The notes beneath the pieces were generated by a model. That model was not told the origin of the DNA and did not search any database. It saw nothing but the letters and a program-made list of their open reading frames with translations. A DNA stretch of 64,000 nt. Origin: Marsupella aquatica. Taxonomy: Eukaryota > Plantae > Marchantiophyta. Made by a program: the position numbers and the translations under genes. The DNA is taken from contig OZ316894.1 of assembly GCA_973895155.1 (NCBI GenBank), positions 19,782,351-19,846,350 of the forward strand, in the 5' to 3' direction. Below, in pieces: positions 25,671 through 64,000 of the stretch. Position 1 is the first letter of the stretch. Every line of letters starts with the position of its first letter.

Positions 25671-28581
25671 ATGGGAACTACGTCATGTGTGCTCTTTGCA
25701 CTCAGTTGCTTGCTGGTTTTGACTCATTCCGAGTTGTTGCAAACCGAAGCGTTTTGCAGCAAATACGTTGAACCCGAAGGCTACTCCTGCCACGAACATA
25801 AGGTACGAACTTCATAGTTTTCTGGAGATCAACTACGTATCCAGATTTCGCTTACAGCATTTCGAGATCAAATCTTGAAGATTACTTGCTCGATCCATAA
25901 TTTCTCCGGTTCATTTGTGCCAGGAGAATAGTGAAGTATATCTTAAAGTTCTAAACGATTTATTTACGATGCCGGAACTATTACCCAGCCCGTTGCTTTA
26001 AATGCTTTCATTTGCATTGTGCTTTTCTGCAGTTATACACGGAAGATGGCTACGGGCTTCTCTTGCACAGAGTGGGAATCAAAGGCGAGGGCAGAGGTGG
26101 GAAAGGACCACTCCCCGGTTCCATCTCAGCCTCCACGAACGAGAGATACAGAGGTTTTCCAGAATCCCCGGGGCTTCAACGATCTCAGTCCCGGATGCAA
26201 CCAGCTGATGAATCAGTTAGTACAGGCTTTGGTGCAGCACTCAGCGAGTATCCGAACCAAGCCATTGCATCTCGAAGGGGCAGTCCCGTGCTTCTTCTAC
26301 ATCCTGAGATGTTGAACGGAGATAGTTGGTTCAAGCACGCGGATCTAGAGAACCAAACCGCACGGCTGCCCTTCCTCCTAGCAGATGAGGGCTTCGATGT
26401 CTGGGTTGGACATCTTCGAGCAACTCAGTGGAGCCATGACCATGTGTCCATTTCGCATCACGAGCCGGTAATGAATTAAGCATAGCATGTCGTCTTGCAT
26501 GTCCGTTTGTTTTGGTTACTCCGAGATCATTTCTCAATTGTCAGTTTCGTGAACCTAGAAAAGCAATTATCTAGAACAGCAAAGAAAGTGAACACCGCAG
26601 CGAAGACACCTACTGACCAAGCGATTCTTTACGCAGGCGTATTGGAACTGGACATGGGATCAACTAGCACAGCATGACTTGCCTACTATGTTGCAATTTT
26701 TGGCAAATGAGACGGGTGGAAAAGTACATGTTGTAGGCTTCTCGCAGGTAAGCTGAGTTGATAGAGTCCATGACTCGCGGGTCTTTGTCGGGCTCGAATT
26801 CTTTGAGTGGTGTGATTAAACATATGTGTGGTGTATCTTGCGAATGGTAGATCTTGAGCAGCTTCCGTGATGAAATGCAGGGTGCCACGGTTGGAGCGGC
26901 AGCCGCTACAAGGGCAAAGGTCGCAGGGCAGATGAAATCTCTCACTTTAATCGGACCTACGATGTACCGTGGAGTAAGAAACCCTCTTCTTACGGGACCA
27001 TGGGCAGGATTCCTACGTGACTTGCTGCGAGAGGTAATGTGATACCTACGTAGTAATCGATAACAAACGGGATCTCAAGCTGCCGTAGTATTCTGCTGCA
27101 TATAATCTATTTTGACTAAAACACGTCACATTGTCAATGTGAGACTCCATTTGGATATAAAGGTCGATCGAGCTAGTGACAATCGTACCGTGGGATAAAT
27201 GCGCAGATCACACACCAAATCGCAGCATCGCCAGGGTGGGTCAACTTTACTAGGTCAGTTTATTTTCAAAACTATGACATCTGTTGTTCGTTTGAAGAGG
27301 CTGAAGACGAGTAGGGAGAAGGAGCAATTAATTACTCCTCACTTGTGCTTACTAGGTCAGTTTATTTTCAAAACTATGACATCTGTTGTTCGTTTGAAGA
27401 GGCTGAAGACGAGTAGGGAGAAGGAGCAATTAATTACTCCTCACTTGTGCTACAAAAATGAACCTTATCTCTCATGCTCTCGTATAGTACTAACATTGGA
27501 CCTGTAACGGCGCTTGCTCCTGCTCGAGAAATTGTTTTCCTGCATAGATTTAGAACTATACGCTGACTTGACTTCTGGAACTTGATCGTTAGGGATATGG
27601 GGGAGTTAGCCAATTTCCAGCCGATTCTTCCGCTGACAGGACCTCGAGCAGAACTGCGATTCCCAATCTCAGGTGAGTTAGACTCCAGTTGTTCGCAATG
27701 ATTTCGTCTTCGATCGTGTTCTCTCCCTTATGAACTGCATTGTGCTACGGCATGTGCACCGGTTTTGACGCAACAACCCTCGTCCGTGCTGCTCGGAGTG
27801 AATTTCCATGAACGTGCGTCCATTTCTTTCAAATAATGATCGATCTGATCGCCAGATGGATTCCGGCTTTTACAGTGAGCAGCCCCTGTCGAATTATCAT
27901 CACGGTACTGTGTGATAATCATGGCGAGGGAAATCCCTGCTAAATGTATGAGTCTGGAACTAATAATAAAATCAATGTGGTGCGAGACGTCGTTAATAAT
28001 GTAAGTTTTGCACGTATATATATATTGCCTGATTGTACATGTGGCTCGCGTATCAACTCCGACAGGTCCTGATTGCTGCTTAAGTCCATCACTCTCTTTG
28101 ATTGACAACGGATGGGATGGAACCACATCGTCCAGCAACATCGAGCATTTCCATCAAGGTAAGTTCCAGTGGTACCTTGTTCATGTTGAGTAAATTGTAT
28201 GTCGATCTGGCCGGCTGTCCCAGTTGCTGCAAGTGGTAACAAATTTTTCTTTTCGTGGTCACAGCTTTGATGACACCTAACTGGAGGAAGTTCGACCACG
28301 GTACGGGACAGCTCAATATTGAGGCGTATGGAAGCCCTACGCCCCCGGATTACGAGCCTAAAGATATCCCGGCCGATCTTCCAGTGCTAATTATCTACGG
28401 ACAAAAAGATTTATATTCCCCAGCGGAGGGAGTCGAGGAATTCATCACTTCAATGCAGAGCCTACCTTCAATTGTGTCTCTATCGGATTACGCCCACTTA
28501 GATCTCTTCTTCAGTACAAATCGCATGCAAGATGTTTATGACCGCGTTAGCACGTTCCTTGGATCCAATGCGACGGCCTAG
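25671..28581 (+). CDS. Secreted acid triacylglycerol lipase (lysosomal/gastric lipase-like alpha/beta hydrolase, LIP1/MPL1 family)
   Basis: Exons 25671-25802 (signal peptide, FCSKYVEPEGYSCHEHK), 26033-26467 (TEDGYGLLLHR, LADEGFDVWVG), 26637-26747 (YWNWTWDQLAQHDLP), 26881-27033, uncertain middle exon(s) near 27593-27672 and 27876-27904, then 28066-28158 (GPDCCL) and 28265-28581. Catalytic triad motifs GFSQG, GQKD, YAHLD. Confidence 0.85.
27247..27451. repeat. Perfect 102-bp tandem duplication in a lipase intron
   Basis: TTACTAGGTCAG...CACTTGTGC starts at both 27247 and 27349. Confidence 0.95.
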
Positions 28582-34829: not shown

Positions 34830-36725
34830 CTAATCCTCCTCTTCTTCACTCACGGTGCCCTGGCTTGAGCCCCGTGAGTGGGCCTCCTTATCACTCTCCA
34901 CTGGAGTGAGTGCCACTTCACTCCTCTTCTTCTTCACCGGGGTATTCCTTGTGCTAGTGCTCCCCTGCTTCCTCAAATTGGCCAAGGCCTGCCACGCCTT
35001 AATGTACCCCTCACCAATGGTGTCCTTCCATAAGGCCGCCTCTTCACCGGACCGCAACTCAAACGGTAAAACCTGCCCGGTGGCCATGGGAGTCCCAGGG
35101 GTGACAGATTGGGGTGGCATCCCCGGGGTCCCCGTGTTGACCTGAGCTTCTCGTAACGATTTACGTACCTCCCTGAGCTTCTTCTCTAAGCTCTTGCTCT
35201 TCTTTTGACTCTTCTTGGCTGCATCCAACAGGGGTCCATACTTCCCACTGACTTCCTTCACCACCATCTCAATGGCCCTGGAGACCAAATCCGGGGAAAG
35301 TGTGGAGCTAGGTGTGCAGGGGCTCTTCCGTTTCCCCAGACTCAAGGCCTCACTCCTCTTAGCCCTTGTCTCAAAGATCACCATTTGACTCCGTAGTGCT
35401 CCCACCTAGGCTCTTAACTCCACCACTTCTCCAGAATTCTGCTGCTCTTTGGCCAATGCCTGTTTCAATACTCCAACCTCTTCCGCTTCCTTGGCCTTGG
35501 TGGACAAGGCTCCCTTCAAGTTGGAGATCTCTACGTGAGCTACTTGGAGAAGTTTAACCTTCTCATGAATGGCCTCCTCCTTGGCCTTGATCACCTCCTT
35601 CATAGACAGGGCACTCTGCTCCAAAGTCTCTACTCTGGCGGTGGCTTGCTTGAGAGAATCTCTCAATGCGTGGACTAGCTTGAGTCCCTCATGGACTCCC
35701 TCCCGGAATTCCCATAACTCTTCCAGGTAGACATCAGGAATATTGTAGACCAGGGGCTCCTCCAGATTTCCCACAAGTGATTCAAGCCACTCCATTGTGG
35801 AGTCCTCATCCTGGTTTTCTTCCTCTCTATTATCATCCCCAACCGCCGACGATGATCCCTCCGTTAGTTTCCCCAAGATGGTAGTGGCAATACTCCTGAT
35901 TTCCGTGGTAAGGGATGATCCAGTGTCTTCCTATCCCGGGGAAACAATCCACCCTTCTGCTCTGGCTAGCAAAAAAGACCCCATCAAATGTACAGCCCCA
36001 CCTGGTTTCACACTCCCGGAATCGGCGTCCAATAGCTTCTTCAACCCGTAGTACCACCATCCGTACACATGGGCTGGATAGTTATTGATGTCCATAGCTA
36101 CCACGAAATGCTCTCCATTCACCACCCCAGATTGCACGTTACCAAGGACCCGTTGATGAACCTTGGCCATAAATCCTTTGTGCTCAGCATCCTTGACGGC
36201 GGAAAGAGGAATGGAAGTAGTGGAGGTGGGATTAATCACCCAACCGGCCACCATTGTCAATGTGAGCTCTCCCCTTATGTTCCGAGGTGTGAATGAGAAT
36301 TGCTGGTTCTCCAGGAACAGAAGCTTAGCTAACTCCACATGGGGCACTACCCGTTGGAGACATTCAAAGTAGATTCCTTCCGTACGTAACTCCATCCCGA
36401 CCTCAATGTTCCAACTCTTCCCTGAAGGGATTGTAATCTCCACCTTCATGAACTTCGTGAGCCCGGTGACTTGAAAAATATTCCTACAATCCTCCATCAC
36501 CTTGGCGGAGGTTTTGGGATAAATTCGACGGAAAACCTTCCTACTCACCGGTGCGAAACTTGCCGCCAGTCCAATACTCATCGTAGCTTCTCTCCCTTCT
36601 CTCTCTCTTGCAATCAATGTTTCAACGTAGTCACGGTAAGCAGCCTTGTATCTCCGAACGCGTGCCGCACTAACTCCGGTTGATCCAGCATCCATGCATC
36701 CAGAAATCAAATCCTCAATCACCAA
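34830..36725 (-). pseudogene. Single ~630-codon ORF interrupted by two in-frame TAG stops (retroelement extra-ORF-like; globular N-half, coiled-coil C-half)
   Basis: ORFs 35931-36725, 35406-35876 and 34830-35405 share one frame. The linker reads SPG*EDTGSSLTTEIRSIATTILGK and the second junction reads ELRA*VGALR. Confidence 0.75.
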
Positions 36726-37059
36726 ATCCCGTCACCCGTAGCAATGTCAATTCCCTGGCCCAAAACGGCCCCCGTATCCCGATCAATCAATTACTCTCAA
36801 TTCCCTCAGAAGCCCCTCCGTGCTGCTGCCGCTAATGCCCGGAAGAATCACGCCACCAAGCCCCACCAACCTACCATGAGAGGGAGAGCTTCAAAAATAA
36901 TTAGAATGTGGAGAGAGCTTCCAGCAAGGTGTTGGGAGAGAGCTCGAGTTTTGCTTTCGGCAAGGAGAGGATCGTGCAAAAGAGGGAGAAAACAAAAAAA
37001 CAAAAAAAACACCCCCGACACCTCCTTTCGCCTTGCGCCCCGGTGCCTTATTCCCTCCT

Positions 37060-40019: not shown

Positions 40020-41299
40020 CCCGTTACAAATTTGAATATCAGCAGGAATGGAACTGAACCGTCAGATTAAAGCATCTCTTTTTTCGTATCCATCCAATCG
40101 TGAAACGAGACATGCATCAGATTTTGCTCTCTTCTGTGCACCCCCGTGCACTCATTATGCCCCTCCATCCCCACCCGCAGCAAGGACCTCCGCATAGGGC
40201 TTCGTGACCCACGTTTACATTCCATGCACTTTCTCCCTATGGGACCGGCCCTCCTTGCATAGTGCAAGGCACTGGCATAGGGCTCGTTACTCATACTACT
40301 CTATCCCAAAGTCTAAACCCTATATGTAGAGCCTACCTATAAAAAATCCAACCTATAAAAGAATCTAACCTAAAATTGGAGACTGTATCTCAAGCCAAAC
40401 CTGGTGAACGACCAAAGATTTTCACTCACATCAAGAAACTAGAAAAACTACAACAAATAAAGAAATCTAACCACCAAATGGATAGAGTAAGGTTGAGCAG
40501 CAAATAAAAAAACCTAAGGACCAAGGAAAGAAAGTAAGCACCAGAGACCACTACAGGTGCCACCGATAGATTATGGGAAAAAATCAGGAATGAAGAATGA
40601 GGTGAAGTCGCTGCTCCTTGCACCTTCCCCCTGCCCCTGGCCGTCGCCCCATGTTGCCCCATGTTTGGCAGTTGTGACCAAAATCAATGGGAATTAGGGT
40701 TACAGTGAACCCTAAACTAATCTGCCGACATATACATAGTTGTGACTTACATAGAGTTCCAGCATAGGAAAAACAACTATGCACCAGTGCATGAGCAAGT
40801 TTCAAACTCAGGACCTGTTGCATGGGAGGCGAGTGCACTAACCAATAGCATAAGGGGAGTCTTCGGGAAGTTGAGACCAAGAACTCTAAATGAATACATA
40901 AGTTCGCAAGGGTGGTCCTATGCCTCACCCGGTACAGTCCGATCAGCTGCCCTTGCTCCCCCCTAAACCTTTCACCCGCCATTTCCACAGGCCACCTGTC
41001 CCCTGCCCGGCCTGCCCGACATTTGAATTCAAATTTTATCTCTAAACAATTAGAATGCTCTATTCTTTTTTCTTGTTTTTCTTACTCATTTTTTTATGCT
41101 TTTTTAGTGCTGATTTTTCTAAGCCGTAGATCTTTCAAAAAGCGTCAACGGGTGAGATGTTACTGAGTGGTGATCGGAGGGTAGCGGATGAGCACCAGTC
41201 CACAAACGCGACTATCGCATTTTTCATATGCCAACTCAGGGGTCACCTGGAGTGTAAATATACTTATTTGTGGTTCAAAGCTAAGTGCCCTGAATACCA

Positions 41300-41662
41300 T
41301 AGATTGAACCTTTCAGGGCCAACTTCAATCTCTACTAAGGGCGAATGAAAAAGGTGGAGGGTTTTGCGGATTGGCTATCAGAATGAGGTGAGAAAGGGCA
41401 CGAGAACAAGACGAGAGCTTCACGGGGTTGGGAACTTGGGATGGAGCATTTGAAGCTCAGTTGGCAATCTGTCCCCGAGTACTGCACACTAGATTGAAGC
41501 TTTCACCGAGATTGAAGCTTTCACCGAGATTGAAGCTTACACTGCCAGCTTCAATCTCTAGTAAGGGCGAATGAAAAGGTGGAGGGTTTTGCAGATTGGC
41601 CATCAAAATGAGGTGTGCGAGGGCACGGGAACAAGACGAGAGTTTTACTGGGTTGGGATGGT
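41300..41662. repeat. ~130-bp direct duplication flanking an 18-bp x3 repeat, upstream of the HSP60-derived exon
   Basis: CTTCAATCTCTA.TAAGGGCGAATGAAAA.GGTGGAGGGTTTT...GAACAAGACGAGAG at ~41323 and ~41549; AGATTGAAGCTTTCACCG x3 (last copy partial) at 41491-41538. Confidence 0.85.
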
Positions 41663-41761
41663 GAGGTCTTCTGTCAATTAGCTGGACAGCCGAAATCAAT
41701 TTGTTTAGGGTTTTGCGGTTGGGGCTTCGTGCTCAATTCATTGCAGTCATCAGCAGCGACA

Positions 41762-42298
41762 ATGCAGAGGCCAGGGACGGCTTTTGTGTCTGCTGCAAGG
41801 TTGGTTTTCTTCGTTTGTTCTTCGTCTATTCTTCTTCCCATCGTTTACTGCATTGTTTTTGCTCCTCTTAGGAATTTCTGCGGAGTCTTTGTGAGCTGAA
41901 GAGTTGTCAGTCCCGGGGTTTATCATTTCCTGAGGTTGATGAGTCCGAGCTGGCTTTTTCTTAGTGGATCCGTCTTCCACACAGGTCGTTTCTCTGGGAT
42001 CTGTATTTTGAATCATTACAGTAGATGGGAGATGCCCGAAAAATTGAAGTCAAAAGATTTAGATGGTACACTGGAATAAGATGGATTTGCAAACGTGGCG
42101 CCTCTTTTCGTGCGTCCAAGAGTGTATGCGCTTCTATTTCGCATTATCCGACTCTGTTTCTTCTCTTGCTGCAGTATTTCCTCGTTGTTGACAACTACAG
42201 ATGATACTGCTATCACCGAGTTGCCAAGGGATGGTGCCCCTGCTTTCGCACCTGGCGGTATGGGTGGTATGGGGGCCATGGCTAATATGGATTACTGA
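41762..42298 (+). pseudogene. HSP60: Internally deleted mitochondrial chaperonin-60 gene (first exon plus last exon only)
   Basis: 42175-42298 encodes (S)ISSLLTTTDDTAITELPRDGAPAFAPGGMGGMGAMANMDY*, the Cpn60 C-terminus with GGM tail, behind a pyrimidine-rich acceptor. 41762-41799 encodes MQRPGTAFVSAA(R) followed by a GT donor, resembling the HSP60 start MYRFASNLASKAR. Telo-box TAGGGTTTT at 41706. No chaperonin core lies between. Confidence 0.75.
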
Positions 42299-42783
42299 GG
42301 AGCTCTAGCTGACATTGTGCACTGACCTTGAGAGTTTACATTCAGTGTCCAGCATATTTACCTTGCCTTATGTGGAGAAACTTGAACGATCTTAGCCATT
42401 TCTCAATTCCTTGCACTGCAAAAGAGTACTTTACTGTGAACAAGCTTATAGATTTTTTGAGCTACCTCGATTATTCGGCATTCTATTCTAAGACCATATC
42501 GTTCTTGACAGAAAGCCGTTGCTCTCAATTGAAACGGAGTCGTATCACTTTTGCACCTTTTCCGCACCGAAGATTGCAGCAGAGCAAGGGATACAAGAAA
42601 ATACATATTTGGACGGAGGTAGAATCTTGGCCCTAAAATCAGAGACTTACCGGTCTGTTGTCTCATTCTGAGCGTTTTATTGTAGAAATATGGTATTGAC
42701 CGAAGAAATCAAATAAGAAAAGCAATTCATTGCACGTCGTGGAATCTCTTGCATTTTATACTGGTATCAGTGAGGTTTTCCAG

Positions 42784-45781
42784 ATCTGATCCCGGGTTGT
42801 GGTGCCGACAGTGGAAGCCCAGGGCACCTACTTCTAATCCTAAGATGACAAGGAAAGCACTTCGGGTGGATGGCTGGTCAACTTCAGCATGGGTGCAGGC
42901 AAGGCCCAAATTGACTACTCAATGCCGATTGCAATGTTGTGCTAGTTATGACAGGAGAGAGTGGTCTCAAGACGCTGTACAAGGGAATGGGACCACGAGT
43001 GAAGCAAGTGCTGTTTTGAAGACCCGTCTACAGCGAGGCATTATTGCAGACTCGTCCACGTATGTTAAAGTTCTGCAAATGTGCTTGAAACAAAAAGACC
43101 TTTTAGCTGCCAAGCAAGTTCATGAATGCATCATCCAGAGTGGAATGGATAAGAATACATATGTAGCCAACACCCTCCTGAATGTGTATATGAGGTGCGG
43201 GGGAGTTTTGGATGCACGTCGAGTTTTTAACAAACTTGAGAAGAAGAATGTTGTTACTTGGACCATGATGATTGCAGGATATGCTAATCGTGATGATGCT
43301 GAATCCGCACTGGAAATTTTCAAATTCATGCGCCAAGAAGGCGCCCGGCCTGATGAGGTCACTTATCTGTCCATTCTGAAGGCATGTGCCAATCCGTCAG
43401 CTTTAAAATGGGGAAAAGAAGTTCACGAGTGTATTCGACATGCCGGCTTTGAATCAGATGTGCGTGTAGGCACTGCCCTCCTTCAGATGTATGCAAAGTG
43501 TGGGTGCATTACGGAGGCAAGCCAAGTTTTTGACAAATTGACTAGTCGTAATTTCATCACCTGGAGTGTGATGATTGGTGCGTATGCCGCAAGCGGCAAT
43601 GTGGATGATGCCCGAAGGATGTTTGACAGAATGGGAAAACGAGATCTAATCTTATGGAACATAATCATTGGAGCATATGCAAAAAGTGGTCGTGGTGTGG
43701 AAGCATATCGTCTATTTCTCGAAATGAGACGAGAAGGTTTTGAACCAAATGCTATCACATATATGAACATCCTTGATACCTCTGCAAGTAACGGGGCTTT
43801 GGATTGGGTGAAGGAGGTTCATGCCCATGCCAGTAAAGCGGGACTGGAGTCAGATTTGCGTGTGGGCAATTCACTTGTTCACATGTATGCGAAAAGTGGT
43901 AGTTTGGATGATGCCCGATTGCTTTTTGACAGATTAAAGACGCTAGAAATAATCACATGGAACATAATGATTGGCGCTTATGCAGAACATGGTCGAGGTG
44001 AGGAAGCATATGGATTGTTTCGCCAAATGATACGGGAAGGCTTAAAACCAGACGCGATCACTTATACGAGCATCCTGAATGCTTCTGCAGGTGCGGGGGC
44101 TTTAGAGTGGGTGAAGGAGGTTCATGGCTATGCTAGCAAAGCGGGCTTGGAGTCGGATTTACGTGTGGGCGCTGCACTTGTTCACATGTATTCTAAAAGT
44201 GGTGGTTTGGACGATGCCCGATTGATTTTTGACAGATTGAAGACGCGCGATGTAATCACATGGAGTATCATGATTAGCGCGTATGCAGAACGTGGTCGCG
44301 GTGATGAAGCATATCTACTGTTTCGTCAAATGATTCGCGAAGGGGTAGAACCAGACGCAATCACTTACACCAGCATCCTGAATGCGTCTGCAAGTGCGGG
44401 GGCTTTAGAGTGGGTGAAGGAAGTTCATGGCCATGCGAGGAAAGCTGGACTGGAGTCGGATTTGCGTGTGGGCAATGCACTTCTTCATATGTATGTAAAG
44501 AGTAGCAGTGTAGACGACGCCCGACTAGTTTTTGACAGAATGGAGAAACGCGATGTAGTGACATGGAATATAATTATTGGCTCGTATGCACGACGTGGTC
44601 GCGGTGTAGAAGCATATGGTCTGTTTCGTCAGATGAGACGGGAAGGCTTACAACCAGACGCAATCACTTATACGAGCATCCTGAATGCATGTGGAAGTGC
44701 TGGGCCGTTGGAGTGGGTGAAGGAGGTTCATGGCCATGCTAGCAAAGCAGGACTGGAGTCGGATTTGCGTGTGGGCGCTGCACTTGTTCACATGTATGCA
44801 AAGAGTGGAAGTATAGATGACGCCCGAGTAGTTTTTGACAATTTGGAGAAACGCGATGTAGTCACATGGACTATAATGATCGGTGGACTTGCACAACATG
44901 GTTGTGGGCATGAAGCCTTGGAACTGTTCAAAAAAATGAATGCGGATCTCGTGAAGGCCGACGGGACTACATTCGTTGCAGTGCTGTCAGCCTGTTGTCA
45001 TGCAGGTCTTGTTGATGACGGCCGTAGACTCTTTTTAGCTATGACGCAAGATTACGGCTTCGAGCCTGACATTGTGCATTATAATTGTATGGTGGATCTT
45101 CTTGGGCGGGCTGGGCACTTGGAGGAAGCAAAGCTCTTCATTAGTGACATGCCAGTTGAACCAGATGAAGTAACTTGGAAAGCCTTGCTTGCGGCTTGTA
45201 GAACTTACGGTAATGTGGAGTTGGGCGAACTTGCAGCTAACGAGCTTTTCAAGTTGGAACCCAATGATGCCTCTACATATGTGCTCCTCTCCAACATTTA
45301 TGCTGCAGCTGCCAAGTGGGAGAAGGTGTCATTGGTGCGCACTATGATGCAACAGAGAGGCGTTCGGAAAGAGCCAGGGTGTAGCTGGATAGAAGTTGAT
45401 AAGAAGATCCATGAATTTTATGTGGCGGATACATCTCACCCAGACGCGAAGGCGATATATACTTACATAACGAAATTGACTGAAAAACTGAAGGCTGAAG
45501 GCTACATTCCCGATACCCAGATTGTGTTGCAGAATATCGACGAGGAGGAGAAAGAACTAGCTCTCTGGTCTCATAGTGAGAAGTTGGCGATTGCTTACGG
45601 GCTGATGCGCATACCTCAGGGAAATCCAATTCGTGTATATAAGAACCTTCGGGTGTGTTCAGATTGTCATACAGCAACCAAGTTTATCTCTAAGGTCACG
45701 GGACGCGAAATTATAGCCAGGGATGCAAATCGGTTTCACCATTTTAAAGATGGTGTGTGTTCCTGTGATGATTACTGGTGA
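42784..45781 (+). CDS. PLS-class DYW pentatricopeptide repeat protein, organellar C-to-U RNA editing factor
   Basis: About 21 P/L/S motifs, E1/E2, PG box KEPGCSWIEV, SHP, deaminase HSEKLA...CSDCH and terminal DYW. First in-frame ATG at 42845; alternative spliced start via acceptor 42783|42784. Confidence 0.97.
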
Positions 45782-46014: not shown

Positions 46015-47524
46015 ATGGCAGCAGCGGAAGGCGACAGACAAATGAGTAGTAGTGGACGACAAAGAAGACGGACGAAGAAACAGAAAAGCAACACGGGCAG
46101 TTGTTATTCACCAAGCTCTTGGATACCCTTTACATTCCTCCAAACGAAGATGAAGCTCATGGGACCTTCGCCGCCGAGTACAGAAGGTCGAAGCAATACT
46201 AAAACCTTGGCTGGAAGAGTCAATGAGGGCGAAGCCAGACGAATATGGGGAAAAAGTTGCCATTTCCTTGCAGCATGAGTATACCAAAGTAAGCTTGAAA
46301 GGAGATGATAGCATTGTGGCAAAGGTGCTCAAAAAGTTGCCGGGACAAGTACGGAGATCAGTGGCTTGATCTGCACATGTTTCTGGTGACGAAGCATCAA
46401 GAGAGGGACCCGGATTCTGATGACTACCACTACGATAACTGTGATGAGGATGATGAGGAAGAGGAACCAAGTGATGTTCCAGATGATAAAGTCGCTAAAG
46501 GCCTCAAGTGTACCACGAGGATACTGAAGTAATTGGATTGAGAAAAATGATGAAGGAGATGCGACTTTTGAAATCCAGACATTGCAGTTCGGGAGGGAGA
46601 GCACCCGTTCCATGATGACCCGGATGATGAAGAACTTTACGACACAGGTAATGAGGGTGCCAAGTTGGAACACTGGTATCACAGGGCCATGCTTGTGCTT
46701 GCTGGCCCACAAGAAGATCCGTACCAATTGCTTATACAGCAGGGATTTTCTGCCCATAGAGATAATAGATCGTATGCTGGAAGTTAATGATCCACGATTT
46801 TGTGAAACTCTACATGTCGTTTTTCGCCACAGTGAAACCAATCCTTCAACGGTGTGGACGGATCCTCGTGAAGATCGAGCCACATCTGGGTGTTTTTGCC
46901 GATCTTGCAATGCAGCATTTCCAGATGGGCAACTGGGATGCAGAGTTTATTGTGGCGAAGAAGCCATGTGAAGTTTCGATGAACTTTCTGAGCTTAAGAA
47001 ACCTGTGTTTTCATGGTGTCAGCCATATGCAAGATTTCCATATCATGCTACTGTCCAAGCGTTTCTTAGAGGACCGCAGGACAGCATGGTCTACAATGAT
47101 GTGACGAGCTTACCTGCTGCAAGGAAGTTTGCAAGAAAAAACTTTCAATGGGACGCTTACAGATGGATATAGTGCCATTGGAATATATGGTGCAGCGTTT
47201 CGTAAGATTAGAAAAATTTGGCATGCTTTTAAGGTTGCCATGAAGGACTGGGAAAATGGGTAAGAGGAACTTAAGGCGATCGGCATACAACCTGACCTGG
47301 CTACCGTAAACATATCTCCTGATGTGGCTGGCCACAGTGGCAAGAAGAGGAAGAAATTGGACATTCAGGTCACTGATCTAAGCAAACTTCAACCTGACCT
47401 GGCTACCGTAAACATATCTCCTGATGTAGCTGGCCACAGTGGCAAGAAGAGGAAGAAAATGGACATTCAGGTCACTGATCTAAGCAGACTTCAGTACAAG
47501 GAAGAGTATCAAGACGAAGTGTGA
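46015..47524 (+). pseudogene. Intronless disrupted gene of unknown family
   Basis: Successive protein-like ORFs in shifting frames (45925-46278, 46305-46532 with acidic tract, 46582-46971, 46787-47104, 47324-47524) separated by stops and frameshifts. It ends with an in-frame 102-bp duplication (47289/47391) carrying KKRKK. Confidence 0.5.
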
Positions 47525-47899
47525 CATGACTAAATGTGATTGACCTGCCTTCTGTTGAAAACTATTGAGAAGTTTGTTTACGAGCTTCTAGACACATTGT
47601 CTTTCAACGAGAAAAGTTCCTGTGGGCTCCGTGCCAGTGGGAGCAGCCAAAATATGTGAATACGTGAGCTGGCTCTTCCCTTGACTTGAAGCTTGCTGTA
47701 GAGACTGCCGCACTAGCAACTGGCTTTAAGCAGAAGGTTCGTCAGCCATTGCCAGGCTCGTGTGACCCTGGGTTGTGTCCGTATTGAAAACCGTTAAGTC
47801 GCCTCAATTGGGGCTTGAGTGGGTCCCTTTTGGTATCGTGCCCAGTAAACCACTTGTCCAAGAAAAACGAATCACCTGTACCACGATATGAGTAACGGG

Positions 47900-50800
47900 G
47901 AGACGCACATGAAAGCGCGATCTGCAGCTGTAATTGTGCTCCAAACCACTGAAGGGTAGACAAACTAGTTCTTCAGTTTTCGGAAATAAGGAATTAACAG
48001 TTGCTAAGAAGGCCAGTGTTAAGGGATGATTTGCAAATGTCTGCAGCAATTCCAATTGCAGTAGTTAACTTTTATCCACATTCCAACAAGGTGTCCGAAC
48101 GATACCTGTTTGAACTGTAGGAAACCTATAGCGAGAATGGCCATAATGTGGTCAACCGCTTGTCCTTGAGGGCCTTCCACAACAAGATTTTGCATGATGT
48201 TCCAGACCCATGGCTTGAGGAACGAGGGAGAACATTTTTTGCACCACGGGAAAAACATTGTCCTCCCTCCAGATTCAGGTTTTGGAGTCGGACAGATCCC
48301 AATTGGTTCAATTACATCATGAACTCGTTCATCTCTTTCCTTGCCGTTCGTCAATTGTATGGATTCTTGGTGACTTGTCAGGGATTAAAGTGATTGCAAA
48401 CAGGGGCCAATGTACTCTGTCAGTTCATATTGATAATAGAATCTACCTCTAGCCATGGCATCTGGATTCAGTAACTAATGCAACACGTTAATGAGTATGC
48501 AATGGCCAATTAGGTTGGAAGCGAGCGAGGGTGAAAATCCTTTTGATGCAATCATGAAAATATGCACACCTTCGACGAGCGTAACTGTTGATAGAGTCCT
48601 GAAGTTTCACAATTGACAGGGAAACGATGGGCCGAGTGATATCTTCCTCACTGCCGGATAACAACAGAAAGTGGAGTGCAGGCTATCATAGTCACAAAGA
48701 CGTTTCAATGTCTTGTCCATGGAGATTAGAAAACAGACTGGATTCTTCCAGGCTATGTAGGGTACAACAGGAAATGCAGTGCAAATGATCCTAGTTCACG
48801 AGATGGTTCTTTTTGTTTTCACGTAGAACTCTAGTAAAATTAACCGTCCTACAATTGCCAGTAATAGCATATGCGTTGAATGTACTAGTGTGCACCAAAT
48901 CTTGTGACTCTGATGCAGCATATATGTGTGTGGCTCGAATCTTGGGACTGTCAGCCAAGAGATATGTATTTTGCACCATCGTCCAGTATGGTAATTTGGG
49001 GGTAGGGATTCAGGATACGAATCAGCACACCTTCCATAAAGGAGCTGAACTATTGGCACCTTGAAAGATTCACACTTTTAACGATTCCTTTTCAATGCTC
49101 CTCGCCTTATTGTAGTTGTCAATCCTCGCCACCCTGCTGATTCCGCACCATGATGACGGTTCTCCAATGCCTGGTCCTCCTCCTGACGGTTGTCCAATGA
49201 GGGCAAAGTTGACAATGAAATAAGTGAAGCGTGGCTGGAAGCCGAAGGTAGTTCCGTCCGTCATCAAATCACCAGCAGGCAGGCAGAACTTTGTAACACC
49301 GGGGCCAAGATCAGGCTGGGAGGGAGAACAACAATGCAGTCGTACCCTTCCTGAGATCTCAAAGCAGAGCAGCACACAAACACCCAAACTGCGGAAACTC
49401 GTAAAGAAAAATTAAGATTACTGCCAAAAGAGAGATGACAGAAAAATTCATTCGCTCGTCTTCATACAAGACTTTCCTTGGTCCGTAATAACGCTGATGG
49501 CATTGTTTCAAGCAATTAGTCAGCTATAATATTATAATAATATCCTAGGAGTGTTCAAAACGAGCTCAGTTGAGTTCTCTCATTGAATATCATTGGATCT
49601 CGAATTGGTGCCCTTTCAATGTGTCCCATGGAACTTTACACCGGAGAGAGGTGTCTCATGGACTTAAGACCTGCTGCACTTGGTGACGCAACAAAATCTG
49701 GACCACCCCACCTGCACAATCTTCACAACACGGAGTCTTGTGAAGATGTAAGGAAGGTGGGAGGCTCTCCCCAAATTAGGAACTTACTGTACATTGGGCA
49801 CCCAGTTTCGTTTGATCTTCTTATTATTCCATGTTCGTTAACAATTGGCCAGACATCGATCATGCTTTCTGAGATTCCGAGGTGGAGGAAGGAAAGGGAC
49901 ACGAGTATGCACCCACATTTACGAAAGGAACGACATTAGGGCAAAGCAAATAATCGGAGAATTTCGTGCCTTCCTGAATACGCAGCGCACGTTGCGGTGC
50001 TCTGCACTTGAAAAGCTGTCACCTCCAAATTAGGAATGCAGGTCATACCATGGAGACTAAATCTCTTTCAATGTCCAAAGGAAACGAGGGCGTTGGAGGA
50101 AATTGCTTGATCTTCAACTGAATGTGGTTCCAAACGGTTCGGTGTTTCGAGACAAGTAAGCATATGGTTACTCATATGTGCAAGGATAATGATGACTAAC
50201 TCCGGAATTCAAAGGCGTGCATTCGTATGATTGATTGGTATGGTTGATGGGTATAAATGGATCAAAGCTTCACTGGAATCTCCAGCACTGTTGCACGTAG
50301 AAGACTATAATTATGAGCGAGAGGAACCACGTCACATCGACTTTTTTCTTCAATCGAAGGTACAATTCTACACAGGTGTTCATAAACCCGTGTTTGAGAA
50401 TTTCACCAGTGATAAACAAATCACTCTGTTTGGGATTGACTTCCTTCCAAGATGTAGATGTGAAAAGAACCGCATTGTAATGCAGTTGAAGATCATGAAG
50501 TTCGAGCACTTCCAAGCTAGATTTGAAGTTGCATTCGTCTAGATTCACTTGAATTTGGTGATTGCATCTTGCATTGTAGGATTCTCGATCCGGGATCTTC
50601 GACCTTTGGAATGTACATAGCATTGCTCCTCAATGTCTTCCTTGGATAACAATGAAGTCTCAGGTTTGTCTTTGTTGAAACAAGGTTTCCCAAACCCCTC
50701 TAAGATGGCTCTCTGATTCATAGATCATCATCACATTTTGGTCAAGAATTATAAGTTACAAGCCCTTGTGGTGGAAACTCTAATAAAAGTATATCCGTTC

Positions 50801-52400: not shown

Positions 52401-52745
52401 ATCCCAGAACCAGTCCCTAACGGGCATGGGGATCTAAAGTGTCTCCAGTGCATGACATATTTGTCATGAATGATTAGATTTTATTCCTAGATTAAAGTAC
52501 TCTTACCAAGAAGGAACAATAGCTGCTTCTGTTACCAATTGAGTTGGAGTAGGCACAATATGGCTGGAATAAAATTTAATGCATGTTGGTTATTGTACAT
52601 TATTACTTAATTTGCCACATAATGATCAACCCCGTGTTTGTTATTGGTTCAGATTAATGTCTTAACAAAAGAAACAAAGTTCAGATTAAGGTGAGGCATT
52701 AATTGAACCAATTCAAGCTCAAGCATCATCGTCCATTATAATACA

Positions 52746-53927
52746 ATGGATGTGAGCTCATACTCCTTACTCCAGACCAATAGCTCCAACAAAGTTGCCT
52801 TGTATGGCCACCAAGACAATTCTACTCATGGGTGTGCTTGGAACTACGGTCAGAACTCTCGCTCTCTTGGATTAGATGAGTATGATCCACAAATGGATGA
52901 ACACTTGTGGACCCAATTGCCAGAGGATTTGGTGGACAGAATATTGGCATGGTTGCCAGTAGCAAGCTACCTTCGACTAAGGACAGTGTGCAAGAAATGG
53001 AGCACCATTATTTACTTACCCAGCTTCTTAGAAGTGTGTGCAAGTGTGCCAACAGTAAACCCCTATTTCATTAAAGTCTCTAATTGTGAATACAGCCGTC
53101 TCTTGTCATGCTACAACCCCATGCTCAATAAGTGGCATAACATACCCATAAGCTTTCTGCCCCCCCATGTGGGATTTCCAGTGGCTTCTGCTGGAGGGTT
53201 GTTGTGCTTCATTAACAAGTTCCATGGCTATGTTGATGACTTTTGCTCCTTATTTGTGTGCAACCCCTTGAGCAAGAGTTGGAAAGAACTTCCATCCATG
53301 CCTTGTAAGCAAAGGCCAATTCTTGTGAGTATGGTCGCCGACAGGCAACCCTTCAAATATCAAGTGATTGTTGCCGGCCTGTTGACTACAGAGGTATACG
53401 ACTCCATGTCTAGCTCCTGGCATAGAGTTGGGTGTTTGCCTCGAGGAGAAGAGGTTTCTCGCAATATTGCATTCTGCAATGGCAACCTTTACTGCCTCAC
53501 ACCTCGATGGTACAATTGTACACTCCTTGCTTATAACCTTGAACAAGAGGTATGGGCAAAGATCAAGACTGGTCGGCTTCCTGGCTACTGCCAATTTCGC
53601 AACCTGGTAGGGTGCAGGGGGAGTATAGTCATTGTGGGCAAATCTGTGAGACATCAAGTGTTGTGTGTGTGTATATGGTTGCTCGAGCAAAAAACCATGA
53701 AATGGAGAGAAGTTGGTCGAATGCCGCAACGTATGTCAGATCACTTCTTAGGAAGGCCATCCGAGAGCTTCTATTGTACAGCATATGGAGACCTCATTTT
53801 CTTGACTCGAGATAATTGTGAGATGGGATTGTTATTTGACCTCTTACAAAAATCATGGCGTTGGGTGTCTGGTTGTCCCAACCTAGAGGGTTTTGCATTT
53901 GAGCCTAGACTAGACGCTGTTGTGTAA
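52746..53927 (+). CDS. F-box/kelch-repeat protein (UFO/HWS/FBX6-like), 393 aa, intronless CDS
   Basis: F-box LWTQLPEDLVDRILAWLPVASYLRLRTVCKKW; VASAGGLLCF; LFVCNPLSKSWKELP; C-terminal FAFEPRL. Confidence 0.93.
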   Translation: MDVSSYSLLQTNSSNKVALYGHQDNSTHGCAWNYGQNSRSLGLDEYDPQMDEHLWTQLPEDLVDRILAWLPVASYLRLRTVCKKWSTIIYLPSFLEVCASVPTVNPYFIKVSNCEYSRLLSCYNPMLNKWHNIPISFLPPHVGFPVASAGGLLCFINKFHGYVDDFCSLFVCNPLSKSWKELPSMPCKQRPILVSMVADRQPFKYQVIVAGLLTTEVYDSMSSSWHRVGCLPRGEEVSRNIAFCNGNLYCLTPRWYNCTLLAYNLEQEVWAKIKTGRLPGYCQFRNLVGCRGSIVIVGKSVRHQVLCVCIWLLEQKTMKWREVGRMPQRMSDHFLGRPSESFYCTAYGDLIFLTRDNCEMGLLFDLLQKSWRWVSGCPNLEGFAFEPRLDAVV

Positions 53928-60237: not shown

Positions 60238-62793
60238 TTAAGCCTTAGCTGATTCCAACTTCAACGCCTCTCTTGCCACAATTTTCTCAAACACCTCCCT
60301 AATTTTGAGGCCTACGATGGTTTGGAACAATCCTGTTCCGTTGTTGCTACCGGGGAAGTCAGCGTGTTTCAACATCTGTTGGGTGATCTCTCCGTAGAAC
60401 TTGGTCGAAATGTTGCTCAAATGACTCTCCACATAAATAAGCTCATCCAGTCTGTCGAATTGACCGTCCATTTCCAGAACGGAAACCTGTGCAAATTGAA
60501 TGCATATGGTATCAATAACTACAAAAATCTAACGACTGACGACAGTACTTAAATTCCCATTCATCACAAATACAGCCAGGAACCTAAGACCAGGGCCTTT
60601 GCAAAATTCCCCCCATCAAAATGTACCTCATGTCCGTAGTACGTGTCTGGGCCGTAGGTAAACGTGATCCCGGGGTACGAGCAGGTCAACTTTCTGCCGC
60701 AAGGGATCCAGGTAATGGTGGAGCCTTCATCGAACAGATGGACCGGCTCAAAGTCGGACACTCCCTCCTTCATGATCATCTTGACCCTCAAGATCTTGCC
60801 CTCGTTGTCATCGGGAATGAGCTGGGTGGGCAGCACTTGGATTACAATATCAGCGTGCTGCTTCTGGGGATCTGCGAGCCCAAATTGTTTTAAGGTCAGC
60901 AGATGAGCACATCCTTATGTCCAGGGAAACAATCGAGTGTCTGTGAAGAGGTTGGAAACAGAGTTAATCAGACAAGTGGTACGGGAAGACATTACCAATA
61001 AAAGCATCGAAGTCTGGCTTGCGAGCAGCAATGCTAGCCTTAATGCTCTCCAAACTGTGTCCTCGCTCAGCCATGTCCCGCTGTCAAATACACAACAGAC
61101 ACAGGCCACTATTCACAATACTGATAGAAGTGAACTACTTACGCCTACATCATACAGTAGCGACAGGAAATCTAACATGCAAGGGATCAGGATACGACTT
61201 CTCGGACAAGGGCTGCCACGACACTGAGAAAACATGCTGCCAGAAATTCGCCTTCTAAAACGAGCACCGACACTGGTCCAATGGACCGAACCAATGCAGA
61301 CTCTTCTTTACTAGAAAAATACGGCGCATAGAGAACCCACATAAACAGCACGGACAGAAACAGAGAGAATTACCTGAATCTTCCATGCAAACTTGACATC
61401 GTCACTGATGTCTAGGTAGATGCTGAAGTCCAGGAGGTCCCTCACCCGCTCATCATACCTAGCACAACGTCAAATTGGAGCCAAGAGGATGATAAGAATT
61501 TCACATTTCTAAATTTGCGGGCGGCCTAGACTTCCGGCGAACTCCGCTATACAAGCCACGCACATGTACTCTGGCAACATCACAACACACACTGAATAAT
61601 TGTCACGTCTCACCACAGTGAATGCATATTTTGTCCCAAGTAACAACACCGGGACCTAAATTACACTTCTTGAAAATTCATTATCATTAATTCGCTTATT
61701 GGTAGGTGTAATTAGTAATATGTCCATAGTAATGATTTCACTTATCGAGGTATTCGAGTGAGAAGCATCACCATCATGAATTCCCGACTAGACATGTCTC
61801 GTCCCACGATTCTGATTTACTCGATAAGTGCAAGACGAAAACCAAAGGGTAGAGTTGGGAATAATTCTCTCTTGGAGGCAGAGGACGTGTATAATTCAAA
61901 CAGAAATTGAAATCCAAAGTTTCAGCTGGACTCTAAACACTGACATAACTCCATACTACCTCGGATTACAAGATGAGGAGGGAGGGTGCATCTTCGGCTG
62001 AAATCTACAGCTGCAGACCAGTTGTTGGGTCCAAGAGATCGTTAATCCATTTTCGACAAGCAACCAGGAACGTCGTGGCGTCGGCCAGCCTTCTGCGTGG
62101 CTTCATATCTACCTCAGATGCGGTCATGGCGCCAGTATTCAGCCCACCTCTCCCGCCTAATAGTGATGTTCCCGAGTGAATTAACCAGGAGGGAGGACGA
62201 AACAGCAAGGTAAGTGAGAAGACTCACATGGGATGCAGTCCTTCGATCACGAAAATCTTGGGTGCAGCAATAGTTTCCGCAGGGTCGAGGAGTCCAGTGA
62301 CATGGTTGTAGATGGGCTTCTCAATAGACTTTCCCTCCTTGATAGCCTTCACTTGCTCGTACATGAGATCGAAATTGTTGGCGCGCGGGTCCAAAGCTGT
62401 AACGGCCTTCTCCTTCCTGCCATACCTGTCCAGTGAATGATAATCATCCAAGCAGATGACAGTAGTGGTATCACTAATGAGGGTGTTGGAATCGGGGTTT
62501 CCGCCCCTCGGAGGGCTCGCAGCTCCGCCAAACACACTCGTCAACCGTCTCATGAAGGTACTCTTGCCACATCCTGAATCGGCAGCCAGTCCAATGATCA
62601 CAGGCCTGACGTCTGGGCCAGCCTTGCACAGCACAACAGCCCTGTGCCCGCGCCTCTTGCTCCCATGGCTGGGCTGAAAATTGAAAGCCCGCACGTCAGT
62701 GTCCAAGCTCAAGGAGCTCGAGATCCCTGTTCCGTGGAAAGCCGATGATAAACTCATCCCACACTTGCTGGAAACTGCAAAGCTAGTCGCCAT
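60238..62793 (-). CDS. PRK: Phosphoribulokinase, chloroplast (~409 aa, 5 exons)
   Basis: Exons 62793-62228, 61458-61374, 61080-60996, 60871-60627, 60486-60238 (1230 nt, frame intact). Transit peptide, IIGLAADSGCGKSTFMRR P-loop, ICLDDYHSLDR, RDMAERGH, FPGSNNGTGLFQTIVGLKIR. Confidence 0.98.
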
Positions 62794-64000
62794 GTCGACA
62801 AATTAAATGAATCCTTCGACTCGTTTGACAGAGGAGGGTCGTCCTCACAGCTCTATCCCAAATCTCTTCTCGTCAAATCATGCTCCGTCCCTGTAATATT
62901 GTGGTGGGAACAGCTATATCGAGCTGAGCTGATGAGTTGAGCCGAGTCGAGCCGAGCTGAGCTGCAGCGACTGCTTCTTCGTCTCGGGAAGTCCTCGTCT
63001 ATGGCGAAGGGGAGGGAGGGAGGCAGGGAAAGAAGGAATCGATGACAAACGATGGGTGGACACTTTCTTCAGGCAAAAGAGGGATGTAAGTGCGTCATGT
63101 TTTGTTTTTTTCCAGGAAAGTTGATTTTAATGAAAGGCAAAAAAATCAGGAAGAAAGTGGGGCAGCTTGAAGACGGGCAGATGAACCCAAGAATGTGGGA
63201 GGAGATTTCGAAGGCTGTGAGTTCCCCAAGACGGCCCCACAAGCATGGTAAGTTCTAAGGATTTTTTAAAGTCTGAGATTTACAAGGCTGCCAATTTGGG
63301 GGGGGGGGTCCAAATTGGCTTAGTAAGTACCACTCGGTGTCCCATAACCTCGGACTCCTGGCTATGCCCATCCCTACTACTCTCAATATCAAATGTCCTC
63401 TTATCAGATAAATTATGGTCCACTAGTGCAAGGCCTGTGCATTTCCCAATGCTGTTATGGTCATGTTGGTGTTTGTGGAGCAATTTTTGTGCATTGCATA
63501 AAAATGTTGAGGTGAGACCAAAAAAACTGTGTTGTAGTTCTCATAGTGTCATCTATTGAGTCTTGTTGTGGCTAGAGAAGTGTTGTCCTTTTGTTTGAGA
63601 GGTTCTTGTTGCAAAAATGATTGCAAAAATGATGTTGTTGGGGAGCCCCAACATGCAATGTATGTACTCTCTGTCTTTTTTTAGGGACCCCGATGAGAGG
63701 TCCCTTCCAAAATTCCTGGCAGCAGAGCATGCCACTTCAACAACAAACAAGATTTATTAGTGTTGTGAATTAAACTTATAATTTTCATTCGTGTTTGCAT
63801 CAATTTGGGTGTAAATTTTGGGACACCATACCGTAAAAAGAAATGTAAAAATTTGAAAATGCAAAGAGCAAGATGGGCAAAACTGTCATTATATAACCCT
63901 TTTAGTTATGTATTCAATTTTAAAAATTAAATTCAAAGAGTAACTGGCACATGGAGTAAGATTTCCAGCATTTTGCAATTACGGCAAACTGTCAGCTATG

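What the first reader, a model, noticed from the sequence alone, without database searches (positions are those of the whole stretch)
41700..45781. DYW-PPR editing factor appears to have recruited the promoter, start codon and first exon of a collapsed HSP60 gene
Seen: the PPR frame is open from 42686 but has no ATG until 42845, and contains an acceptor GTTTTCCAG|A at 42783/42784 in phase 2. The HSP60-like exon 41762-41799 (ATG, 38 nt) ends in phase 2 at a GT donor. Joining them gives an uninterrupted ~1011-aa protein MQRPGTAFVSAAR-SDPGLWCRQWKPRAPTSNPKMTRKALR..., with an Arg/Ser-rich, acid-poor, presequence-like N-terminus. The HSP60 last exon would then sit inside the intron as an alternative terminal exon. 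Known: nuclear genes for mitochondrial proteins such as rps10, sdh3 and rps14 gained targeting by borrowing exons of host mitochondrial genes, including chaperones. Inference: the same route, with alternative 3' splicing, could create new organelle editing factors. I do not know of this being described for a DYW-PPR.
Basis: partly seen in the sequence, partly recalled or inferred. Interest (0 to 1): 0.85.

Follow-up and report, generated by a model that had tools for sequence, protein, structure and literature searches.

The report
Editing gene borrows a chaperone's start
A liverwort gene for a predicted organelle RNA-editing protein sits behind the first and last exons of a gutted copy of the mitochondrial chaperone HSP60 and likely starts from them, and gene models of related proteins begin with pieces of other genes instead, which would make such borrowing a repeated way for new editing factors to get switched on and addressed.

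Summary
The coordinates hold and the HSP60 origin is confirmed. Exon 41762-41799 matches Calypogeia fissa mitochondrial HSP60 residues 1-13 at 11 of 13. Its length (38 nt) and phase are those of plant HSP60 exon 1. Exon 42175-42298 is HSP60's last exon; no internal exon survives.

The proposed splice is probably wrong. Contigs of a related plant's probable RNA run join 41799>42175, then leave the HSP60 tail by a donor in its Gly-Gly-Met repeats, enter 42512, and join 42618>42812. No joint into 42784 was among 15 of 48 listed. So the HSP60 tail is likely an internal exon, giving about 1065-1068 aa. That N-terminus is acidic, so HSP60 more likely lends promoter and start codon than a working presequence.

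Paralogues with the same leader, and an apparently intron-less copy, lie in DNA that also holds this locus unchanged. In C. fissa gene models of the same clade, 7 of 16 start with an LHCB-derived leader and 1 with a methyltransferase piece, all ahead of the same exon. No RNA of this locus was seen; targeting is untested.

The parts
41301..41658 (+). Upstream region with a direct repeat at about 225-nt spacing (41301-41433 and 41527-41658, 81-88% alike) and a short 18-nt repeat. Likely promoter / start of the 5' leader; HSP60 origin of the part before 41527 is inferred, not shown.
   Evidence: no canonical heat-shock element, TATA or site II motif found in 40900-41800
41527..41761 (+). Likely 5' untranslated leader
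   Evidence: an X1 contig covers 41527-41730 (29 differences in 204); another X1 contig carries both 41701-41752-like sequence and the HSP60 tail with 3' UTR
41762..41799 (+). Coding part of HSP60 exon 1 (ATG, 38 nt, phase-2 donor); two Ala changed to Pro-Gly relative to C. fissa HSP60
41800..42174 (+). Intron 1; likely a fusion of the first and last HSP60 introns (both phase 2); no trace of internal HSP60 exons
   Evidence: 41799>42175 joint, GT..AG, 2 X1 contigs; best local score 28, 115 of 200 shuffles reach it
42175..42298 (+). HSP60 last exon, coding part to its stop. Likely used as an internal exon up to a phase-1 donor G|GTATGG after 42266 or 42257; ATG 42260 is in frame with the PPR if 42266 is used.
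42299..42480 (+). Remnant HSP60 3' UTR (likeness to HSP60-type contigs ends near 42419) and the fusion zone; likeness to other PPR loci begins at 42480
   Evidence: tables 7 and 8
42512..42618 (+).
   Evidence: 11 of 16 C. fissa proteins match in this frame at E<1e-5, 2 more weakly; X1 contigs cover 42516-42618 between two joints
42619..42811 (+).
   Evidence: 42618>42812 in 5 X1 contigs
42812..45781 (+). Main exon: N-terminal linker, 21 PLS-type PPR motifs (43052-45166), E1 (45167), E2 (45269), DYW domain (about 45500-45778) with PG box, HSE, CxxC and terminal DYW

Best explanation
This is a complete DYW-type PPR reading frame lying behind the first and last exons of a collapsed mitochondrial HSP60 copy, and it is likely transcribed from that remnant as one four-exon mRNA (41762-41799, 42175-42257/42266, 42512-42618, 42812-45781) for a predicted C-to-U editing factor of about 1065-1068 aa. 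Shown: the origin of both HSP60 exons, the absence of internal ones, the conserved third exon, and this splice path in related RNA-type contigs. Inferred history: an HSP60 duplicate lost its internal exons (16 of 18 by the moss gene's count) between two phase-2 introns, so the frame survived. A PPR gene broken in the phase-1 intron before its conserved exon came to lie behind the HSP60 3' UTR. The Gly-Gly-Met repeats, whose DNA reads G|GTATGG, supplied ready phase-1 donors. The chimera was then copied by DNA duplication and probably by retroposition. Inferred function: the remnant mainly supplies promoter, leader and start codons. Import, most likely into mitochondria, would rest more on the basic third exon, possibly from a start at the Gly-Gly-Met ATG 42260, than on the 13 borrowed residues.
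For: Exon-1 identity: 11 of 13 with C. fissa HSP60 (P0131), against 4 of 12 with the end of its penultimate exon. A 38-nt ATG..AG|GT first exon was found upstream of the last exon in 29 of 67 plant HSP60 loci from metagenomes; many others are too short or are mRNAs. Splice path in X1: 41799>42175 (GT..AG, 2 contigs); HSP60 tail>42512-type exon (3 contigs); 42618>42812 (2 contigs GT..AG, 3 more with 24-27 diverged letters that fill the expected length); one 280-nt contig spans tail, third exon and the start of exon 4 in frame. C. fissa gene models join the third exon straight to the 42812-type start in 12 of 16 first-round proteins. Run X3, which holds this locus unchanged, also holds two other contigs with HSP60 tail followed by PPR start (records 8, 10) and joints of an intron-less form (table 5c). 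Donors after 42266 and 42257 rank 1st and 3rd of 64 GT sites. DYW motifs intact; 11 of 14 P/S motifs carry canonical 5/L pairs (code from PMC10482289). Charge counts: four-exon form 2 basic / 4 acidic in 35 residues, ATG-42260 form 9 / 1, HSP60 6 / 1. One X1 contig is 11 nt short in the tail, which puts the HSP60 ATG out of frame while a Met just before its donor stays in frame.
Against: No RNA from this locus or organism was seen. X1 holds 0.05 of the words, its laid contigs are mostly under 95% alike, and 'RNA' is the tool's guess. Only 15 of 48 joints were listed, so a weak 41799>42784 joint could be hidden. On a matrix from 29 moss introns the acceptors before 42512 (1.7) and 42812 (1.2) score below the one before 42784 (6.1), and 42580>42618>42784 is another in-frame route with a basic N-terminus. 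The equivalent of the donor used by the X1 contigs (near 42281-84) is not present here; this locus must use 42257 or 42266. The promoter's HSP60 origin is not shown. The C. fissa fusions are gene models whose transcript support I could not see. Charge counts are not a targeting prediction.
Confidence: 0.68

Rival explanations
1. One reading: exon 1 splices straight to 42784 and builds a new mitochondrial presequence; the HSP60 last exon is an alternative terminal exon.
For: In frame. N-terminus as basic and amphipathic as HSP60's own (6 basic, 1 acidic; moment 0.56 against 0.60). Acceptor scores 6.1. C. fissa model P0052 uses the equivalent acceptor, and 42785-42811 aligns with moss PPR N-termini.
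Against: No joint into 42782-42784 among 15 of 48 listed joints, whereas three other junctions each appear in 2-5 contigs. It skips an exon conserved in 11-13 of 16 C. fissa proteins. As a minor isoform it remains possible.
Confidence: 0.14
2. The four-exon mRNA is made, and the HSP60-derived N-terminus is itself the working targeting signal (mitochondrial, or plastid/dual because its first 21 residues are Ser/Thr/Ala-rich and nearly uncharged).
For: ATG 41762 has A at -3 and is the first in-frame start. Both HSP60 exons have kept an open, in-frame reading despite about 15% DNA divergence from an HSP60-type contig in the tail region (record 9).
Against: Only 13 of about 30 presequence residues were taken, Ala-Ala became Pro-Gly, Arg13 becomes Ser at the junction, and four acidic residues follow. 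One related transcript appears frameshifted in the tail.
Confidence: 0.3
3. The HSP60 remnant is a neighbouring pseudogene or mini-gene; this PPR copy uses its own downstream start (ATG 42845) or is silent.
For: No RNA for this locus. Some X1 contigs cover intron 3 (record 6, 42726-42922). The ATG-42845 form is basic (6 / 1 in 35). HSP60-type contigs run through the stop into the 3' UTR.
Against: Related transcripts cross from the HSP60 tail into the PPR exons in 3 contigs. The arrangement recurs in at least 2 other DNA contigs. All splice sites and the frame are intact here.
Confidence: 0.12
4. The 38-nt exon is a decayed end of HSP60's penultimate exon (also phase 2) with a chance ATG, so no HSP60 start was borrowed.
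For: Both exons end in similar residues; 18 of 30 nt match the loose end of an HSP60-type X1 contig (my count, table 7).
Against: 11 of 13 identity to C. fissa HSP60 residues 1-13 against 4 of 12 to the penultimate exon; exact 38-nt length.
Confidence: 0.02

Closest known systems
Borrowed presequences of organelle-to-nucleus transferred genes (Arabidopsis sdh3 from hsp70, carrot rps10 from hsp22, rice rps11-1 from atp2; Rhazya sdh3 from hsp22; sdh3 with a chaperonin presequence in Cupressaceae)
   Same: A gene gains its 5' end from a duplicate of a nuclear gene for a mitochondrial protein, often a chaperone (PMC2631504, PMC4045975, PMC8317393; passages seen).
   Different: The recipient is a nuclear-born editing factor, not a transferred organelle gene. 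It takes the first and the last exon of the donor, and only part of the presequence. The capture seems to recur with different donors at one intron.
rps14 inside sdhB/sdh2 in rice and maize (one presequence shared by alternative splicing)
   Same: A host's first exon is spliced to a foreign coding exon (PMC2631504 passage and its reference titles).
   Different: There the host gene is intact and still makes its protein. Here the host has lost its internal exons, the PPR lies behind the host's last exon, and that exon is read through by an internal donor.
DYW-type PLS PPR editing factors of bryophytes (such as Physcomitrium PPR56)
   Same: PLS array ending P2-L2-S2, E1, E2, DYW with PG box and HSE. 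Expansion by dispersed duplication and retroposition is reported for early land plants (PMC13386178, passages).
   Different: The papers I saw do not describe leaders captured from HSP60 or LHCB. The protein has no close orthologue among the hits (79-84% over the last 330 aa to C. fissa proteins).

Membership tests
DYW-type PLS-class PPR editing factor | Array of P, L, S motifs ending in P2-L2-S2 | tested here: met
   21 motifs laid out; Pfam PPR hits
DYW-type PLS-class PPR editing factor | E1, E2 and DYW domain with PG box, HSE, CxxC, C-terminal zinc ligands and terminal DYW | tested here: met
   PF20431 and PF14432 (1-93 of 93, E 8e-43); motifs read
DYW-type PLS-class PPR editing factor | Canonical 5/L code residues in P and S motifs | tested here: met
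   11 of 14 canonical (code from PMC10482289)
DYW-type PLS-class PPR editing factor | Organelle import | tested here: inconclusive
   Only charge and hydrophobic-moment counts; no targeting predictor on hand
DYW-type PLS-class PPR editing factor | Edits a cytidine in an organelle RNA | not testable with these tools
   No organelle genome or transcriptome of this plant is held
Gene with a 5' end borrowed from a nuclear gene for a mitochondrial protein (sdh3/rps10/rps11 type) | 5' coding exon homologous to the donor's first exon | tested here: met
Gene with a 5' end borrowed from a nuclear gene for a mitochondrial protein (sdh3/rps10/rps11 type) | Borrowed exon is spliced in frame to the recipient | tested here: inconclusive
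   Met in related RNA-type contigs; no RNA of this locus
Gene with a 5' end borrowed from a nuclear gene for a mitochondrial protein (sdh3/rps10/rps11 type) | Borrowed part holds the donor's whole presequence | tested here: not met
   13 of about 30 residues (the cleavage point near residue 30 is inferred from general knowledge); no trace of later 5' exons
Gene with a 5' end borrowed from a nuclear gene for a mitochondrial protein (sdh3/rps10/rps11 type) | Recipient is a gene transferred from an organelle | tested here: not met
   Recipient groups with nuclear liverwort DYW-PPRs
rps14/sdhB-type shared presequence by alternative splicing | Host gene intact and making its own protein | tested here: not met
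   Only residues 1-13 and about 539-579 of HSP60 are encoded
rps14/sdhB-type shared presequence by alternative splicing | Two products from alternative 3' splicing | tested here: inconclusive
   A 53-aa mini-product and a 41799>42784 form are possible on paper; neither was shown for this locus

The most novel reading that the evidence does not exclude
In leafy liverworts the expanding DYW editing-factor family works as a plug-in system. A phase-1 intron in front of one conserved basic exon repeatedly accepts the 5' ends of unrelated organelle-protein genes: HSP60 here, LHCB and a methyltransferase in Calypogeia fissa. The captured leader sets expression and decides whether the factor goes to mitochondria or plastids, so leader swapping, spread by duplication and retroposition, reassigns editing enzymes between organelles.
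Probability: 0.4. Interest if true: 0.85.

Novelty: new variant of a known kind. Interest (0 to 1): 0.64.

Why it matters
Editing-site numbers in liverworts rise with PLS-class PPR diversity (PMC6865856, passages), and PPR genes spread by dispersed duplication and retroposition (PMC13386178). Such copies need a promoter and an organelle address, and where they get them is, to my knowledge, open. This locus shows one source in unusual detail: a chaperone reduced to its two end exons, with its Gly-Gly-Met tail serving as splice donor and possible start codon. The LHCB-led and methyltransferase-led relatives suggest the route is used repeatedly. It makes a direct test possible: do HSP60-led factors edit mitochondrial RNAs and LHCB-led factors plastid RNAs?

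Tried and rejected
No whole genome is held for this window, so the intact HSP60 gene of this organism could not be aligned. No RNA holder on record was listed; X1 is a guessed RNA run with a small share, laid to see what it holds. A homologue search with the 40-aa HSP60 tail scored nothing. Five candidate proteins of the window were not in the collection by exact look-up. The search of protein representatives met a full queue four times and the Atlas did not answer, so the origin of the third exon and the identity of the moss N-terminal motif stay untested. The penultimate-exon origin of the 38-nt exon was rejected. No remnant of internal HSP60 exons was found. The HSP60-like stretch in C. fissa P0248 is too weak to count (10 of 17, pairwise E 0.016; not found at E 0.05). 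The tree does not resolve the order of leader swaps; the liverwort clade is star-like. Contig depths were not used to rank expression. The donors of the leaders of P0038, P0047 and P0068 remain unidentified. Three look-ups of earlier findings returned nothing.
Full report
Setting. The 3.1-kb frame 42686-45781 encodes a PLS-class PPR protein with E and DYW domains. The highest identities among the 120 listed hits are to Calypogeia fissa proteins (64-71% full length). On a tree of the last 330 residues the window protein groups with all 22 C. fissa proteins included (support 100/99), apart from the moss-type and lycophyte rows, with no clear orthologue (37 rows chosen from about 130 held, unnamed rows labelled moss by assumption). 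The window is therefore most likely from a leafy liverwort. One contig of run X3 matches 40500-43086 without a difference. It may be the source DNA, but it spans the whole HSP60-PPR junction.

Observation. The question was what the 38-nt exon is, because it also resembles the end of HSP60's penultimate exon. A pattern scan fetched 67 plant HSP60 loci. In 29 of them a first exon of exactly 38 coding nt, ATG to AG|GT, was found; many of the rest are too short or are mRNAs. A moss-type mRNA maps to 18 exons. With that mRNA as query I retrieved C. fissa HSP60 (P0131). Its first 13 residues match the window exon at 11 positions; the penultimate exon matches 4 of 12, and no other 13-mer of the window exceeds 6. 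Its tail matches 42140-42295 (E 1e-11). Nothing in between matches. So the host is a mitochondrial HSP60 copy reduced to exon 1 and the last exon. Both flanking introns are phase 2, which is why the collapse keeps the frame.

A missed exon. C. fissa proteins laid on the region by tblastn hit 42511-42618 in one frame: 11 of 16 at E<1e-5, 2 weakly, 1 in another frame, 2 not at all. The hits end at a GAG|GT donor. In 12 of these 16 models the next residues correspond to the window's 42812 start, after a CAG acceptor; one model (P0052) uses the equivalent of 42784.

Transcript evidence. No run on record as RNA holds this locus. Run X1, a guessed RNA run of another organism label, was laid at 80% likeness. 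It behaves like RNA: GT..AG joints, little cover of introns, and a spliced HSP60-type contig whose loose end is the penultimate exon. Of 48 joints, 15 were listed, 12 of them from X1. They include 41799>42175 (2 contigs), HSP60 tail to the 42512 exon (3 contigs, leaving inside the Gly-Gly-Met repeats), and 42618>42812 (5 contigs: 2 direct, 3 with diverged letters of the expected length), plus one contig that enters 21 nt further on. None enters at 42784. One 280-nt contig spans tail, third exon and exon 4 in frame. A second, by depth arithmetic (my inference), also carries 22 nt of exon 1; it is 11 nt short in the tail, so its HSP60 ATG would be out of frame while a Met just before its donor is in frame. 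These are paralogues or a relative's genes, not this locus. In X3, two further contigs carry HSP60 tail followed by PPR start (about 82-86% alike), and two joints at equal depth read like an intron-less copy. HSP60-type contigs stop matching near 42419, and six other PPR-type contigs start matching at 42480, which places the fusion between them.

This locus. The donor used by the X1 contigs has no GT here, but two earlier repeats give G|GTATGG donors in the same phase, after 42257 and 42266; they rank 3rd and 1st of 64 GT sites on a matrix from 29 moss introns. They give 1065 and 1068 aa. Against my reading, the same matrix scores the acceptors before 42512 and 42812 low (1.7, 1.2) and the one before 42784 well (6.1), and 24 in-frame chains exist among the sites tried. 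The isoform mix here is therefore open.

What is borrowed. The four-exon N-terminus has 2 basic and 4 acidic residues in its first 35, against 6 and 1 for HSP60, and two helix-favouring Ala have become Pro-Gly. Only 13 of about 30 presequence residues were taken. A start at ATG 42260 gives 9 basic and 1 acidic. I therefore read the remnant mainly as promoter, leader and start codons, with import resting on the basic third exon; this is inference. The catalytic end is intact, and 11 of 14 P/S motifs carry canonical code pairs.

Wider pattern. Among the 16 C. fissa DYW proteins, the N-terminus of P0039 is a decayed LHCB transit peptide plus mature start (E 6e-28 to chain 8htu_U, residues 9-99), and 7 of 16 share it (E<1e-12). 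P0108 starts with a methyltransferase piece (PF13649), repeated in two cluster mates on other contigs. P0038 has yet another, basic leader. All lie ahead of the same conserved exon, in the LHCB-led ones with a further short segment between. With HSP60 this makes at least four leaders in one clade, hence at least three replacements whatever the tree. These are gene models; I could not see their transcript support.

Comparison with what is known. Borrowing a 5' end from a chaperone or other mitochondrial-protein gene is established for genes moved from mitochondria to the nucleus, and sharing a presequence by alternative splicing for rps14 in rice and maize. I saw passages only of PMC2631504, PMC4045975 and PMC8317393, of PMC13386178 and PMC6865856 on PPR expansion, and of PMC10482289, PMC9459714 and PMC6963530; no supplements. 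Six searches combining PPR or DYW with HSP60, chaperonin, LHCB, chimeric gene, exon shuffling or Calypogeia listed no paper whose title or abstract start describes this; the library lacks most subscription journals, so that is limited evidence. It is not a member of the rps14/sdhB type (host not intact) nor strictly of the sdh3/rps10 type (recipient nuclear, presequence partial), but it works like the latter.

Verdict. A real chimeric gene: HSP60 origin shown, splice path corrected from relatives, targeting role unproven. New variant of a known kind, with signs of being a recurring route in this family. Interest 0.64.

Noticed in passing
C. fissa proteins P0006, P0018, P0024/P0243, P0039/P0247, P0099, P0103/P0249, P0112/P0250: DYW-PPR gene models that begin with a decayed LHCB transit peptide and mature start. 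P0062 and part of P0006 look by eye like the same DNA read in another frame (untested).
   Followed up: partly
C. fissa proteins P0108, P0246, P0245: A methyltransferase N-terminal piece (PF13649) fused to the same conserved exon, on three different contigs.
   Followed up: partly
C. fissa P0242 and P0248: A 118-aa HSP60 5' fragment is annotated as its own gene, and P0248 has a weak likeness to HSP60 residues 30-46 ahead of the conserved exon. Possible raw material or intermediate.
   Followed up: partly
window 42785-42900; moss proteins P0005, P0007, P0055, P0061, P0102; lycophyte P0060: A Trp-rich motif with PDF precedes the PPR array in moss and lycophyte relatives and survives in decayed form here. 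It recalls the single-strand-binding PDF motif of OSB proteins (PMC6963530 passages); the likeness is recalled, not tested.
   Followed up: partly
run X3, joints 41799>42214 and 42591>42836: Apparently intron-less copy of the chimeric transcript in DNA that also holds this locus (table 5c).
   Followed up: partly
window 41800-41935: One X1 contig joins 41800 to 41911 with 28 other letters between (table 5c): a possible extra cassette exon in intron 1 of a paralogue.
   Followed up: no
window 34830-36731 (-), 46150-48400 (+), 18783-20450 (-): Stop-broken or unassigned reading frames flanking the gene, and a 555-aa coiled-coil-like frame; no Pfam family above threshold.
   Followed up: no
window 52707-53927 (+), 62224-62802 (-), 25955-26479 (+): Ordinary neighbours: F-box/kelch protein, phosphoribulokinase exon, weak lipase-like exon.
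   Followed up: no
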